Assembly: GCA_022749895.1 (NCBI GenBank)
Contig: JAKIWS010000007.1
Coordinates: 3,089-67,088 of the forward strand
Direction of reading: 5' to 3'
Length of the DNA: 64,000 bases
Source of the DNA: Thermoplasmata archaeon
GTDB taxonomy: Archaea; Thermoplasmatota; Thermoplasmata; Lutacidiplasmatales; UBA184
Part shown: one piece after another, positions 52,356-58,461 of the stretch
Layout of the letters: each line of letters opens with the position of its first letter
Position numbering within the stretch: the first letter of the stretch is position 1
Translations under genes and position numbers: made by a program
The notes under the pieces: model-generated
Told to the model about the DNA's origin: nothing
Databases searched by the model: none
What the model saw: only the letters and a program-made list of their open reading frames with translations

Positions 52356-52882
52356 GCTCGGCGAGGGAGGTTCGCCCGGATTCTTCCCACGGTGGCGAGC
52401 TTTCACCATCACGAGAAGCAAGACATCAACATTATCTAACTACGCGGCTGAATCAACCAACCGTGCCGTTCGATCGAGCCAATCTTGAAGACGTTCGCCA
52501 CCCCGTCGAGAGGGCTGTGGGGAAGGAGGGCGTGGGCACCGTGTTCGGTTTAGGACGGCCGTCCCGAGGACGGCGCTTGAGAATCCGCGTCGATAGCCCC
52601 GACCGGGGCTCAGGCTCGGACCGCCCTCCGGGCGGCTCGGGAGTATGCGCATGACGGTCACCCCGCGCAAGCGACCGTCGCCCGCCGGCAAGAAGCGCCA
52701 CCGACTGCAGCGGCAACGGAGAATCGCCCGACGCCGACGTCAGGTTCCTCCCGGGGGGAACCGGCGCCGTCGCTCAGGATAGATTCGTCCATTCCAGAAT
52801 CCCGTCGCGTGGGCCGGCTCGCGGACCCCGACGCGAGCCGGGGCCGGGCCCCGAGCGTTTCCGAACGAGTTGAGAAACAAGC

Positions 52883-57030: not shown

Positions 57031-57229
57031 TCCGCATCCCCCGGCATGGGTCGCAATCGGTAGGACCGCTTCGCGGTATATCGTCCTTGACCTCGATTCC
57101 GTTCCCGCGTCGCGTCCCTCGCCCGGCCCCCGTCGCCGCGGTTGCCCCGCGTCGAACCGTGCTCGGCGCGCGGTCGGGGCCGGCGTGCCGCGGCAGGTTT
57201 ATGTGTCCTGCAAAGCTCCCATCGACTGT

Positions 57230-57336
57230 AGCCCCGTAGTGTAGTGGCCAATCATGCGAGACTCTGGATCTCGCGACGCAGGTTCGAACGCTCCGAGGCC
57301 GCGCGACCTCGGTGGCCGGAACTCCTGCCGGGGCTA
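57230..57336 (+). tRNA. tRNA-Gln(CTG) with a 34-nt intron at position 59/60 (57289-57322)
   Basis: AGCCCCG/CGGGGCT-A acceptor (A1-U72), loop CTCTGGA; T-loop interrupted by a BHB (helix TTCG/CGGA, bulges AA^C and AC^T); TTTATG box about 27 nt upstream. Confidence 0.9.
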
Positions 57337-57369
57337 CTCGGGCTCAACCACAGCGCGACGGATCAAAGT

Positions 57370-57514
57370 GCGGGGGTGCTCCAGCTCGGCCAAGCCGCCC
57401 GGTCTCCCGGGCGGGGCCTCCGAGGCAGGGCTTAGAACCCTGTTGCTTAGGGCATGCGCCGGTTCAAAGGGAGCGCGGCCCGCCGCCGCGTTCCGGAGAC
57501 TCCGGCCCCCCGCA
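57370..57514 (+). tRNA. tRNA-Leu(TAG) with two introns (21/22: 57394-57420; 59/60: 57469-57500)
   Basis: GCGGGGG/CCCCCGC-A acceptor, CAGGG-CTTAGAA-CCCTG, long variable arm; both inserts form BHB-type motifs. Confidence 0.88.
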
Positions 57515-57531
57515 TCCGCCGCCCCCCCGCT

Positions 57532-58461
57532 ATGAACCGACCGGTGCGGTTGCCCGACGGGGCGTCGTGGGAGATTCTTCCTCCCTCGGCCATCCTCCGT
57601 CTGGAACCCGAGGGCGCCGACCAACTGCTCGACCGGCTCGAAGCTGGCGTTCCGATCGCTCCGGCACTTGCCGAGATACCCAAGGTTTCGGACGGCACCG
57701 CCTACGTCTTCGGCGACACCCACGGCGACTGGCGCTCGACCGAGGCCGCGGTCGCGCGGTTTTTGCCGGCGCCGCTCACCGACTTCTTGGTCGGACTCGG
57801 CGACTACGTCGACCGCGCCCCGGACGATTGCGCTCAGGGCTCGGTGGCGAACGCGCTCTTTCTCCTCCAGCTCGCGGCCCAATTCCCCGGTCGCGTCCTC
57901 TTAGTGAAGGGCAACCACGAAATGCATCGGATCCTGCCGGTACTTCCGCACGACCTCGACGAAGAGGTCGACACCCTCTGGGGCCCGGACATCCGGCGCT
58001 ACGCCCGGATCGCGGCTCTCCTCGAGCGGGGTCCGCTCGCCGCGGTCACCGACTCGGGGGCCTACCTCGCTCACGCCGGCTTTCCGCGGAACGGGAAGGG
58101 GGCCGACGTGCGGGCCGGCTTCGAGCGGTTGACCGAGGAACAGGTCGTGGACGTCGTGTGGGGCGAGAGTGGCGCCTCGCGTTCCCACCGGGGGGTGTCC
58201 GTCCCGTTCACCGAGCGCGAGCTCAAGGAGTTCCTCACACACGTCGGCGCGAGCGTCTTCGTGCGGGGCCACGACCCGGATCTGGCCGGACGCTCGGTCT
58301 TCGATGACCGCTGCCTGACCCTCCACACGAGCCGGATTCACGAACGGTTCGGAGGGGTCCTGCTGGCCCGGGTCCCGCTCGATACCCGGGTCCGGCATGT
58401 CGCGGACCTCACGATCGAGCACCTCGAGACCGAGGGAAGGGAGTACCCGGCCCCCGACTGA
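57532..58461 (+). CDS. PPP-family Ser/Thr protein phosphatase (metallophosphoesterase)
   Basis: GDTHG, GDYVDR, KGNHE, HAG, RGH; ATG just after tRNA-Leu. Confidence 0.85.
   Translation: MNRPVRLPDGASWEILPPSAILRLEPEGADQLLDRLEAGVPIAPALAEIPKVSDGTAYVFGDTHGDWRSTEAAVARFLPAPLTDFLVGLGDYVDRAPDDCAQGSVANALFLLQLAAQFPGRVLLVKGNHEMHRILPVLPHDLDEEVDTLWGPDIRRYARIAALLERGPLAAVTDSGAYLAHAGFPRNGKGADVRAGFERLTEEQVVDVVWGESGASRSHRGVSVPFTERELKEFLTHVGASVFVRGHDPDLAGRSVFDDRCLTLHTSRIHERFGGVLLARVPLDTRVRHVADLTIEHLETEGREYPAPD

What the first reader, a model, noticed from the sequence alone, without database searches (positions are those of the whole stretch)
57370..57514. Hidden tRNA-Leu(TAG) interrupted by two non-canonical BHB introns
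Seen: removing 57394-57420 and 57469-57500 gives a normal class II tRNA-Leu. Intron 1 (D-loop, 21/22) is a strict BHB: CTC-GGCC-AA^G-CCGCCCGG-TCTC-CCGGGCGG-GGCC-TC^C-GAG. Intron 2 (T-loop, 59/60) has bulges AA^G and AC^T, a 10-bp inner stem and a central helix TTCA/GGAG with one A.G mismatch (relaxed BHB). Established: multiple and non-37/38 introns are typical of Thermoproteales and a few other lineages with broad-specificity (alpha-beta)2 or epsilon2 splicing endonucleases, whereas Thermoplasma has an alpha2 EndA. Inference: this Thermoplasmata-like lineage has an unexpected intron-rich tRNA system and possibly an unusual EndA.
Basis: partly seen in the sequence, partly recalled or inferred. 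Interest (0 to 1): 0.88.

Follow-up and report, generated by a model that had tools for sequence, protein, structure and literature searches.

The report
Doubly interrupted tRNA-Leu gene in Thermoplasmata
This is a real leucine tRNA gene broken by two small introns in unusual places, and it belongs to a soil archaeal group in which about a third of all tRNA genes carry such introns although the cutting enzyme is of the kind thought to handle only ordinary ones.

Summary
Removing window 57394-57420 (D-loop, 21/22) and 57469-57500 (T-loop, 59/60) gives a class II tRNA-Leu(UAG). My BHB-splice-and-rescan pipeline found exactly these two introns (ARAGORN 117.1; best of about 819,000 reversed-genome pairs 108.3).

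The locus is full length in 21 of 24 other same-genus genomes. Exons are 98.4% identical, introns 55-60%. Seven of 8 inner-helix pairs of intron 1 show compensatory changes. The spliced product is collinear with uninterrupted orthologues.

The genome is Thermoplasmata (Lutacidiplasmatales-like). The neighbouring tRNA-Gln(CUG) and 10 more tRNAs also carry a 59/60 T-loop intron: 12 of about 39 tRNAs in all. The same intron type occurs in three other Thermoplasmata families.

The "unusual EndA" inference is not supported. EndA is an ordinary two-repeat alpha'2 enzyme with no specific-loop insertion. That is the interesting point: non-canonical-position introns are abundant where the EndA/intron co-evolution model does not predict them. 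No spliced RNA was seen. I found no paper describing this.

The parts
57198..57202 (+). TATA-like TTTAT about 30 nt upstream of tRNA-Gln; candidate promoter of a Gln-Leu precursor (inferred)
   Evidence: sequence. Contigs of relatives laid carry TTTAT at the same distance in their unaligned upstream ends. No similar element lies in the 33-nt Gln-Leu spacer.
57230..57336 (+). tRNA-Gln(CUG) gene: exon 1 57230-57288, T-loop (59/60) intron 57289-57322 (34 nt, strict BHB), exon 2 57323-57336
   Evidence: ARAGORN 125.2 after splicing, against 108.2 for its mis-folded unspliced call 57228-57304. Rfam 26.9 bits unspliced. Central helix 100% paired and 5 of 8 inner pairs with double changes in 19 distinct rows. 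Collinear with intact orthologues.
57370..57393 (+). tRNA-Leu(UAG) exon 1: acceptor 5' strand, D-stem 5' strand, D-loop up to A21
57394..57420 (+). Intron 1 (27 nt) in the D-loop at 21/22; strict hBHBh' motif
   Evidence: outer helix (3 bp) and central helix (4 bp) 100% paired in 22 sequences; inner helix 7 of 8 pairs with changes on both sides, 89.8% of cells paired; recovered by the pipeline (no mismatch, inner 8, outer 3).
57421..57468 (+). Exon 2: D-stem 3' strand, anticodon arm (anticodon TAG at 57433-57435), 15-nt variable arm, T-stem 5' strand, T-loop positions 54-59
57469..57500 (+). Intron 2 (32 nt) in the T-loop at 59/60; BHB with an A57.G mismatch in the central helix
   Evidence: T-stem 100% paired; central helix 3 pairs kept, the fourth unpaired in 21 of 22 (A-U in one); inner helix 7 of 10 pairs with double changes; one mismatch, inner 10, outer 5.
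57501..57514 (+). Exon 3: T60, T-stem 3' strand, acceptor 3' strand, discriminator A73; no encoded CCA

Best explanation
Window 57370-57514 is a functional gene for tRNA-Leu(UAG). Its transcript carries two protein-spliced (EndA-type) introns. It is probably made together with the upstream tRNA-Gln(CUG) from one promoter.

In the precursor, each exon-intron boundary pair folds into a bulge-helix-bulge. Intron 1 uses a second CTC in the D-loop to pair with the D-stem 3' strand, then a GGCC/GGCC central helix and an 8-bp intron hairpin. Intron 2 uses the T-stem itself as the outer helix, T54-A57 with the intron 3' end as the central helix, and a 10-bp intron hairpin.

The homodimeric alpha'2 EndA encoded on contig C28 would cut after the second nucleotide of each 3-nt bulge. 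RtcB (contig C71) would join the three exons into an 86-nt class II tRNA. The CCA end is added afterwards.

Shown here: the gene, the motifs, their conservation and covariation, the junctions' collinearity with uninterrupted orthologues, and the presence of EndA and RtcB genes.

Inferred: transcription, cleavage by this EndA, ligation by RtcB, and co-transcription with Gln.
For: - Exact BHB geometry at the stated coordinates.
- ARAGORN 117.1 after in-silico splicing; 0 of 819,245 reversed-genome pairs reached 110.
- The locus is full length in 21 of 24 other same-genus genomes. The three misses are G004 (cut at a contig end), G009 (no match, 67% complete) and G014 (no match to this locus).
- Exons have 80 of 86 columns invariant and 98.4% mean identity. 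Introns are 55% and 60% identical, the spacer 40%.
- Covariation score 0.184 against 0.093 for shuffles (0 of 500 shuffles reach it) and 0.080 or less for slid partners.
- First intron nucleotides and the two intron-side bulge nucleotides vary freely, while the exon-side nucleotides are fixed.
- The spliced product aligns to intact tRNA-Leu(tag) of four sister-family genomes at 71 of 86, with no gap at either junction. The T-arm is identical over 17 nt and the D-loop has the same 13-nt length.
- All five Leu isoacceptors are then present once each, and there is no second Leu(tag).
- EndA has its catalytic Tyr, His and Lys aligned with those recalled for M. jannaschii alpha. RtcB scores 579 bits.
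- Twelve tRNAs in the genome share the same T-loop boundary architecture.
Against: - No RNA evidence. The four metatranscriptome contig sets laid showed no joint and did not cover tRNA-Leu. They covered only the intron-containing Gln locus of relatives, which could be precursor RNA or DNA.
- Intron 2's central helix has a conserved A.G mismatch, so it is not a textbook strict BHB.
- Wild-type A. fulgidus alpha'2 EndA 'hardly cleaved' a BHB intron placed in a D-loop (PMC3241643, passage read), so cleavage of intron 1 by an alpha'2 enzyme is not assured.
- The genome is 83% complete, so a second EndA subunit or an intact Leu(tag) copy could lie in the missing part.
- The 22 sequences are from one genus and are not independent. 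One of them (L009 from G019) is from an unpublished genome.
Confidence: 0.9

Rival explanations
1. A decaying tRNA pseudogene: the two insertions are not removed, and the locus is no longer used.
For: Standard tools do not call it. No spliced RNA was observed.
Against: - 80 of 86 exon columns are invariant across 22 genomes, while introns and flanks diverge to 40-60% identity.
- Compensatory changes keep the intron hairpins and BHB helices.
- There is no other Leu(tag) gene in the genome.
- Eleven other tRNAs, several of them the only gene found for their anticodon, have the same T-loop interruption.
Confidence: 0.03
2. The introns are real, but this alpha'2 EndA alone does not remove them. 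A second, undetected subunit or factor would supply the specificity, for example one encoded in the missing 17% of the genome or too diverged to detect. Alternatively, the mature-domain context supplies it.
For: - The literature links non-canonical introns to loop-bearing (alpha-beta)2 or epsilon2 enzymes (PMC5829648).
- A. fulgidus alpha'2 EndA performs poorly on a D-loop BHB (PMC3241643).
- Family f3 of the same order has 10-14 nt T-loop insertions without an inner helix, which is a relaxed bulge-helix-loop form.
- This genome is 83% complete.
Against: - Only one EndA-domain gene was found in this genome (2 domain matches, both in one reading frame).
- Exactly one EndA match was found in each of 9 relatives that are 88-99% complete; the tenth (G039) had two matches in a single 395-aa open frame.
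- The introns in this genus keep both 3-nt bulges and both flanking helices, which is the form that narrow-specificity enzymes accept.
- A Thermoplasmatales alpha'2 enzyme (Ferroplasma) is reported to cut minimal BHB substrates (PMC8707768, abstract only).
Confidence: 0.12
3. Chance: a GC-rich region that happens to give a tRNA-like sequence after two arbitrary deletions.
For: A 69% GC genome yields about 278,000 BHB-like candidates. Low-scoring pseudo-tRNAs do arise in the control: 70 hits, maximum 108.3.
Against: The score of 117.1 is above every control hit. There is also conservation in 22 genomes, covariation and collinearity with intact orthologues.
Confidence: 0.01

Closest known systems
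Multiple-intron and non-canonical-position tRNA genes of Thermoproteales (Crenarchaeota), found with SPLITS and tRNAscan-SE 2.0
   Same: Short protein-spliced introns bounded by BHB motifs in the D-loop and T-loop, with more than one intron per gene. A large share of tRNA genes is interrupted: an average of 0.84 introns per tRNA gene in Thermoproteales (PMC8450103, passage read).
   Different: - There the enzyme is a heterotetrameric (alpha-beta)2 EndA with the Crenarchaea-specific loop. Here it is a single-chain alpha'2 EndA without it.
- There the positions are many. Here one position (59/60) accounts for 12 of 13 non-canonical introns, or 12 of 14 if the Arg-gcg candidate is counted.
- Similar intron sequences are reported among Thermoproteales tRNAs (PMC4033280). 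Here the intron interiors are no more alike than shuffles.
ARMAN-2 (Ca. Micrarchaeum) pre-tRNA-Cys with a 59/60 intron and pre-tRNA-Pro with 53/54 plus 59/60 introns (PMC3239211, passages read)
   Same: The same T-loop site (59/60), and two introns in one tRNA.
   Different: ARMAN-2 has the three-unit epsilon2 EndA with its own specific loop. Its Cys intron is a relaxed hBH form. The lineage is DPANN, not Thermoplasmata.
Archaeal alpha'2 EndA of Archaeoglobus fulgidus (1r0v, 2gjw) and Thermoplasma acidophilum (2ohc)
   Same: One polypeptide with two tandem EndA repeats, of which the C-terminal one is catalytic. Phmmer E 1e-26 to 1r0v over residues 28-336.
   Different: - These enzymes are classed as narrow specificity, and their hosts are described with canonical introns (PMC6379350 Table 1; PMC5829648).
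- The T. acidophilum chain matches only the C-terminal 86 residues (E 2.4e-12).
- The protein here keeps a fuller C-terminal domain in its N-terminal repeat than A. fulgidus does (alignment).

Membership tests
Archaeal BHB (hBHBh') tRNA intron | Two 3-nt bulges on opposite strands separated by a 4-bp helix | tested here: met
   Intron 1: GGCC with GGCC/GGCY, 100% paired in 22 of 22; both bulges are 3 nt. Intron 2: both bulges are 3 nt, but the helix has 3 pairs plus an A.G mismatch in 21 of 22, so it is met in a slightly relaxed form.
Archaeal BHB (hBHBh') tRNA intron | Flanking outer and inner helices | tested here: met
   Intron 1: outer 3 bp, inner 8 bp. Intron 2: outer 5 bp (the T-stem), inner 10 bp. 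Both inner helices have 7 pairs with compensatory changes.
Archaeal BHB (hBHBh') tRNA intron | Removal at the bulge sites restores a canonical tRNA | tested here: met
   ARAGORN 117.1 as tRNA-Leu(tag). No gap at either junction against intact orthologues.
Archaeal BHB (hBHBh') tRNA intron | Cleaved by EndA and ligated in vivo (spliced RNA exists) | not testable with these tools
   The RNA-library contigs laid gave no joint and no cover of tRNA-Leu.
Class II tRNA-Leu | Long variable arm, anticodon for Leu, discriminator A73 (identity elements recalled from general knowledge) | tested here: met
   15-nt variable region with a 4-bp stem (helix 6, 100% paired); anticodon TAG at 57433-57435; A at 57514; ARAGORN isotype Leu.
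alpha'2 (homodimeric) EndA | A single polypeptide with two tandem EndA repeats | tested here: met
   Pfam PF02778 and PF01974 each match in two stretches of the 353-aa protein. NCBIfam NF006795 matches residues 20-352 at 249.7 bits, below its equivalog cut-off of 501. Full-length alignment to 1r0v.
alpha'2 (homodimeric) EndA | Catalytic Tyr-His-Lys in the C-terminal repeat | tested here: met
   In the alignment to 1a79, Y, H and K stand in the aligned motifs FRAY, HARYL and VRKEF. The identity of the triad positions in M. jannaschii is recalled, not from a call.
alpha'2 (homodimeric) EndA | Forms a homodimer | not tested
   No complex prediction or experiment was run.
Broad-specificity EndA ((alpha-beta)2 with CSL/L1, or epsilon2 with ASL/L2) | Separate alpha and beta genes, or a three-unit epsilon protomer | tested here: not met
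   One gene with two repeats. The ARMAN-2 chain 4fz2 matches only residues 247-338.
Broad-specificity EndA ((alpha-beta)2 with CSL/L1, or epsilon2 with ASL/L2) | An inserted specific loop with a conserved Lys between beta3 and beta4 of the catalytic unit (the site of EKGDL 174-178 in A. fulgidus; PMC3241643) | tested here: not met
   The query reads YGS-RVGAR-LELS opposite A. fulgidus YGS-EKGDL-VTLS with no gap, and aligns there with M. jannaschii alpha without a gap. The turn has the same length in 11 Thermoplasmata EndAs.

The most novel reading that the evidence does not exclude
Several Thermoplasmata families have filled a fixed site in the T-loop (59/60) of a quarter to a third of their tRNA genes with introns. 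They have occasionally added more, such as the D-loop intron of this tRNA-Leu. All the while they keep a plain alpha'2 EndA with no specific loop.

In family f3 of the same order these T-loop introns have shrunk to 10-14 nt bulge-helix-loop forms with no inner helix.

If the alpha'2 enzyme alone removes all of these, then the accepted rule is wrong for a whole class of Euryarchaeota. That rule says non-canonical introns and tRNA gene disruption require an (alpha-beta)2 or epsilon2 enzyme with an inserted loop. Standard pipelines would also be under-counting tRNA genes in these MAGs.
Probability: 0.5. Interest if true: 0.72.

Novelty: new member of a known kind. Interest (0 to 1): 0.6.

Why it matters
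Three reasons.

1. Annotation. In this genome the Rfam tRNA model finds only 26 tRNAs at E of 1e-6 or better. ARAGORN mis-folds or misses at least 12 genes. Near-complete genomes of the genus show 26-28 strong hits where related families show 37-42. tRNA counts are used to grade MAG quality, so these genomes are penalised for genes they do have.

2. Enzyme-substrate co-evolution. The literature holds that alpha'2 lineages carry canonical introns and that tRNA gene disruption follows the acquisition of a specific loop in EndA (PMC5829648, PMC3241643, PMC4033280). Here is a lineage with abundant T-loop introns, a D-loop intron and a two-intron tRNA, but with an ordinary alpha'2 EndA. That gives a direct test: express this EndA and assay it on its own D-loop, T-loop and (from family f3) micro-intron substrates.

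3. Intron dynamics. tRNA-Leu(UAG) is uninterrupted in family f2 and in G032. It carries only a 10-13 nt T-loop intron in f3. It carries a 32-nt T-loop intron plus a 27-nt D-loop intron in this genus. That is a compact series for studying intron gain, loss and size change at a fixed site.

Tried and rejected
- ARAGORN intron mode on the whole genome gave 43 calls, many with odd intron positions. I re-examined 15 such loci with up to three permissive BHB deletions. Only the C30 locus improved (Arg-gcg, 115.5, weak BHB). The rest stayed at 109 or below, or gave no call, and I treat them as noise. Tyr and Trp did not pass my BHB criteria. I count them as intron-bearing only from ARAGORN intron mode and from Rfam hits of 54.9 and 45.7 bits.

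- A strict BHB (inner 8, outer 4) just upstream of tRNA-Gly(tcc) looked like an acceptor-stem intron. The sequence shows it lies in the 5' leader, and removing it lowers the score from 114.5 to 109.7. Rejected.

- RNA evidence. The look-up of sequencing runs returned only small shares (0.15 or less). There was one contig per run and no joints. Two contigs cover 57228-57339 with intron-region differences, so they come from relatives. Two stop at 57295 and 57288. Nothing covers tRNA-Leu. This neither supports nor contradicts splicing.

- Intron transposition. Pairwise local alignment of the 12 T-loop intron interiors gave mean 11.86 against 11.83 for shuffles (88 of 200 shuffles as high) and maximum 23 (39 of 200 as high). 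No signal.

- EndA features tracking intron load. An alignment of EndA from G000, 5 low-count relatives and 5 normal-count relatives showed no insertion or consistent residue difference at the CSL turn or elsewhere. The groups were defined by the tRNA counts, and 11 sequences cannot exclude subtle differences.

- Low strong-tRNA counts as a proxy for disruption outside the order. G032, G038 and G040 have 24-25. Re-searched as a pair with laxer filters, G038 and G040 have about 28-30 strong hits and only 6 and 2 weak ones. Of those 8 weak loci, 4 resolved into T-loop-intron tRNAs. L146 and L151 gave nothing at 108 or more; L147 (108.9) and L148 (112.4, one mismatch, junction after nt 31) are doubtful. 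So most of the shortfall in those genomes is unexplained.

- Literature. Searches found no paper describing T-loop or multiple tRNA introns in Thermoplasmata. The Lutacidiplasmatales paper has 0 occurrences of 'intron'. Supplementary tables could hold such cases, for example Table S7 of PMC8450103 and the per-species data behind Figure 7 of PMC5829648. I could not see them. Papers outside the held library were not searched.

Full report
OBSERVATION

Deleting 57394-57420 and 57469-57500 leaves 86 nt that read as follows:
- acceptor stem GCGGGGG with CCCCCGC
- a 3-bp D-stem (CTC with GAG) and a 13-nt D-loop
- anticodon stem CAGGG with CCCTG and loop CTTAGAA (anticodon TAG at 57433-57435)
- a 15-nt variable arm
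- T-arm GCCGG-TTCAAAT-CCGGC
- discriminator A

No CCA is encoded. ARAGORN and Rfam, both at gathering threshold and at E up to 10, do not see the gene. An RNA fold of the 145 nt forms the acceptor stem, the T-stem and both intron hairpins (z = -2.78).

IS IT MORE THAN CHANCE?

I built a SPLITS-like census. It enumerates every BHB-like site on both strands: a 4-bp central helix with at most one mismatch, two 3-nt bulges, and flanking helices. It cuts the candidate intron out in silico and rescans with ARAGORN. The reversed genome serves as a control.
- Candidates numbered 277,958 in the real genome and 277,187 in the reversed one.
- For single introns, 76 real and 28 control hits spanned the junction, and no control hit exceeded 106.8.
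- For pairs of introns (819,809 real, 819,245 control), 16 real and 0 control hits reached 110, with a control maximum of 108.3.
- The pair 57394-57420 plus 57469-57500 gave tRNA-Leu(tag) at 117.1.

It is the only true two-intron tRNA the pipeline found. The other 15 high-scoring pairs were a single real intron plus a spurious deletion at a gene end, or a near-duplicate of the Leu pair.

CONSERVATION AND COVARIATION

A DNA search of 40 relatives found the whole Gln-Leu region in 21 of 24 other genomes of the same genus, at 77-83% identity. The three misses were G004 (cut at a contig end), G009 (67% complete, no match) and G014 (no match to this locus).

In the 22-sequence alignment:
- 80 of 86 exon columns are invariant, with mean pairwise identity 98.4%.
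- Intron 1 is 55% identical, intron 2 is 60%, and the Gln-Leu spacer 40%.

Pair counts on the BHB model:
- Intron 1: outer and central helices 100% paired; 7 of 8 inner pairs changed on both sides.
- Intron 2: the T-stem is invariant; three central pairs are kept, with U-A to U-G exchanges; the fourth position is A.G in 21 of 22; 7 of 10 inner pairs changed on both sides.
- Whole-structure covariation is 0.184 against 0.093 for shuffles (0 of 500 reach it) and 0.080 or less for slid partners.

The sequences are close kin, so these figures overstate independence. The slid-partner control keeps relatedness and still separates clearly. One row (L009, from G019) comes from an unpublished genome; nothing depends on it alone.

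ARE THE JUNCTIONS RIGHT?

tRNA-Leu(tag) is uninterrupted in four genomes of sister family f2 and in G032. The predicted spliced product aligns to the f2 genes at 71 of 86, with one gap in the variable loop and none at either junction. The T-arm is identical over 17 nt and the D-loop is 13 nt in both.

WHAT LINEAGE?

The genome is 2.02 Mb in 106 contigs, 68.7% GC and 83% complete. Its EndA is 90% identical to that of a MAG titled 'Thermoplasmata archaeon isolate AcS5-107', a name that appears in Table 1 of the Lutacidiplasmatales paper. It is 66% identical to one titled 'Candidatus Lutacidiplasmatales archaeon'.

THE NEIGHBOUR AND THE REST OF THE GENOME

ARAGORN's tRNA-Gln(ctg) at 57228-57304 is a mis-fold. 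The real gene is 57230-57336, with a 34-nt strict-BHB intron at 57289-57322 in the T-loop. It scores 125.2 spliced against 108.2 unspliced, and Rfam gives only 26.9 bits.

Genome-wide:
- Eleven tRNAs carry a single T-loop intron of 26-37 nt at the same site: Arg-tct, Ala-ggc, Ser-gct, Asp-gtc, His-gtg, Glu-ctc, Gly-tcc, Ser-cga, Arg-tcg, Asn-gtt and Gln-ctg. Spliced scores are 114.5-126.1. Leu-tag makes twelve.
- All twelve read T-stem, TTC(A/G), AA^N, hairpin, NGRR, NN^(T/C), T-stem.
- Where position 57 is G, the central helix is fully paired. Where it is A, the opposite base is G in six and U in one.
- Two tRNAs (Met-cat on C2, Leu-taa) have anticodon-loop introns by my pipeline.
- Tyr and Trp have them by ARAGORN intron mode and Rfam.
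- Twenty-three tRNAs are uninterrupted by ARAGORN at 114 or more. One of them, Pro-ggg, has no Rfam hit.

That gives about 39 tRNAs, of which 12 have a 59/60 intron. Rfam independently flags 8 of the 11 single-intron genes as weak hits of 24.9-37.5 bits.

BEYOND THE GENUS

Strong Rfam tRNA hits (E of 1e-6 or better):
- 26-28 in most same-genus genomes of about 90% completeness or more (G004 has 24 and G017 has 20)
- 29-31 in family f2 genomes of 93-95% completeness (28 in G030, 80% complete)
- 23-27 in family f3
- 37-42 in five other Thermoplasmata families
- 24-25 in G032, G038 and G040

Direct checks:
- In f3, Gln-ctg has an anticodon-loop intron plus a 13-14 nt T-loop insertion (123.6 and 123.9 after removal).
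- In f3, Leu-tag has a 10 or 13 nt T-loop insertion and an intact D-loop (113.2 and 115.1). These insertions have no inner helix, so the motif is bulge-helix-loop.
- In f2, the T-loops of Gln-ctg and Leu-tag are intact, but Gln-ctg has an insertion of more than 165 nt after the anticodon.
- G038 has T-loop introns in Ser-cga, Arg-cct and Lys-ctt, and G040 in Lys-ctt (4 of 8 weak loci fetched).

The D-loop intron of Leu-tag was seen only in this genus.

THE ENZYME

A Pfam EndA-domain search of the genome gives two domain matches, both in one reading frame on contig C28. The 353-aa protein has the N-terminal and catalytic domains twice.
- It matches NCBIfam NF006795 end to end, at 249.7 bits, which is below that model's equivalog cut-off.
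- It aligns over its whole length with A. fulgidus alpha'2 EndA (E 1e-26).
- It aligns with Thermoplasma acidophilum EndA only over the last 86 residues.

The Crenarchaea-specific loop lies between beta3 and beta4 of the catalytic unit, where A. fulgidus has the turn EKGDL 174-178 (PMC3241643, passages read). At that place this protein reads RVGAR with no extra residues. Its catalytic repeat aligns with M. jannaschii alpha over 169 residues with only two small gaps. EndA from five low-count and five normal-count Thermoplasmata relatives has the same architecture. RtcB is present.

So the enzyme is ordinary. What is unusual is its substrate set.

COMPARISON WITH WHAT IS KNOWN

BHB introns at 21/22-like and 59/60 positions and multi-intron tRNAs are well known in Thermoproteales, and 59/60 introns in ARMAN-2 (PMC3239211, PMC4033280, PMC8450103; passages read). 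The 2014 review lists multi-intron tRNAs for Crenarchaeota, N. equitans, M. kandleri, M. thermautotrophicus, Korarchaeum and ARMAN, not for Thermoplasmata. Kaneta et al. 2018 state three things: only (alpha-beta)2 and epsilon2 enzymes cleave non-canonical introns; 'Cluster II' Euryarchaeota have only alpha'2; and tRNA gene diversity tracks EndA inserts.

The introns in this genus keep both bulges and both flanking helices, so a narrow-specificity enzyme could in principle accept them. However, wild-type A. fulgidus EndA hardly cut a BHB placed in a D-loop (PMC3241643). The f3 micro-introns are relaxed forms. I found no paper on this. Supplements were closed, and tRNAscan-SE 2.0 may well detect these introns in routine annotation.

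VERDICT

The gene and both introns are real (confidence 0.9). As an object it is a new member of a known kind. Its context makes it moderately interesting and directly testable: a Thermoplasmata lineage in which about 30% of tRNA genes have a T-loop intron while EndA is a plain alpha'2. Splicing itself has not been observed. The one attempt with public RNA libraries was uninformative.

Noticed in passing
window 57228-57336: ARAGORN's tRNA-Gln(ctg) call 57228-57304 is a mis-fold. The real gene is 57230-57336, with a 34-nt strict-BHB T-loop intron at 57289-57322.
   Followed up: yes
G000 contigs C10, C15, C32, C41, C43, C50, C60, C63, C68 (outside the window): Ten further tRNAs carry a single 26-37 nt intron at T-loop position 59/60 with one shared boundary architecture: Arg-tct, Ala-ggc, Ser-gct, Asp-gtc, His-gtg, Glu-ctc, Gly-tcc, Ser-cga, Arg-tcg and Asn-gtt. 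ARAGORN mis-calls or misses them, and Rfam scores them below 38 bits or not at all.
   Followed up: yes
L116, L119, L122, L125 (G028 and G026, family f3, same order): tRNA-Leu(tag) and tRNA-Gln(ctg) carry very short (10-14 nt) A-rich T-loop insertions at 59/60 with no inner helix (bulge-helix-loop form). Gln also has an anticodon-loop intron. EndA there is also alpha'2.
   Followed up: partly
L120, L121, L123, L124 (G030, G027, G025, G029, family f2): tRNA-Gln(ctg) has an insertion of more than 165 nt right after the anticodon. It contains repeated hairpin-like units (GGTACCGTAAGGG-like and CCCTTTTCAGG...CCCGAAAAGG-like). The T-loop is intact. Its nature (a long intron, possibly holding a small RNA or repeats) was not analysed.
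   Followed up: no
L144, L145, L149, L150 (G040 and G038, other Thermoplasmata families): T-loop 59/60 introns of 30-37 nt occur in Lys-ctt (both genomes) and in Ser-cga and Arg-cct (G038). Most of the tRNA shortfall in these genomes remains unexplained.
   Followed up: partly
G000 contig C30, 52463-52570 (minus strand): Candidate tRNA-Arg(gcg) with a 31-nt D-loop intron (52526-52556). ARAGORN gives 115.5 after removal, but the BHB is weak (inner 3, outer 2). Rfam gives 27.9 bits unspliced. Conservation was not checked.
   Followed up: partly
G000 contig C96, 31616-31693: tRNA-Pro(ggg) is called by ARAGORN at 117.2 but has no Rfam tRNA hit at E of 0.01 or better.
   Followed up: no
window 57198-57202 and 57337-57369: A TATA-like TTTAT lies about 30 nt upstream of tRNA-Gln and is also seen in contigs of relatives. 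The 33-nt Gln-Leu spacer has no such element, which suggests a dicistronic precursor.
   Followed up: partly
window 57454-58461 (+): The open frame of the downstream gene reaches back into tRNA-Leu (ATG at 57454). An in-frame ATG at 57532, 18 nt after the tRNA 3' end, is the more likely start. An automatic gene call from 57454 would overlap the tRNA.
   Followed up: no
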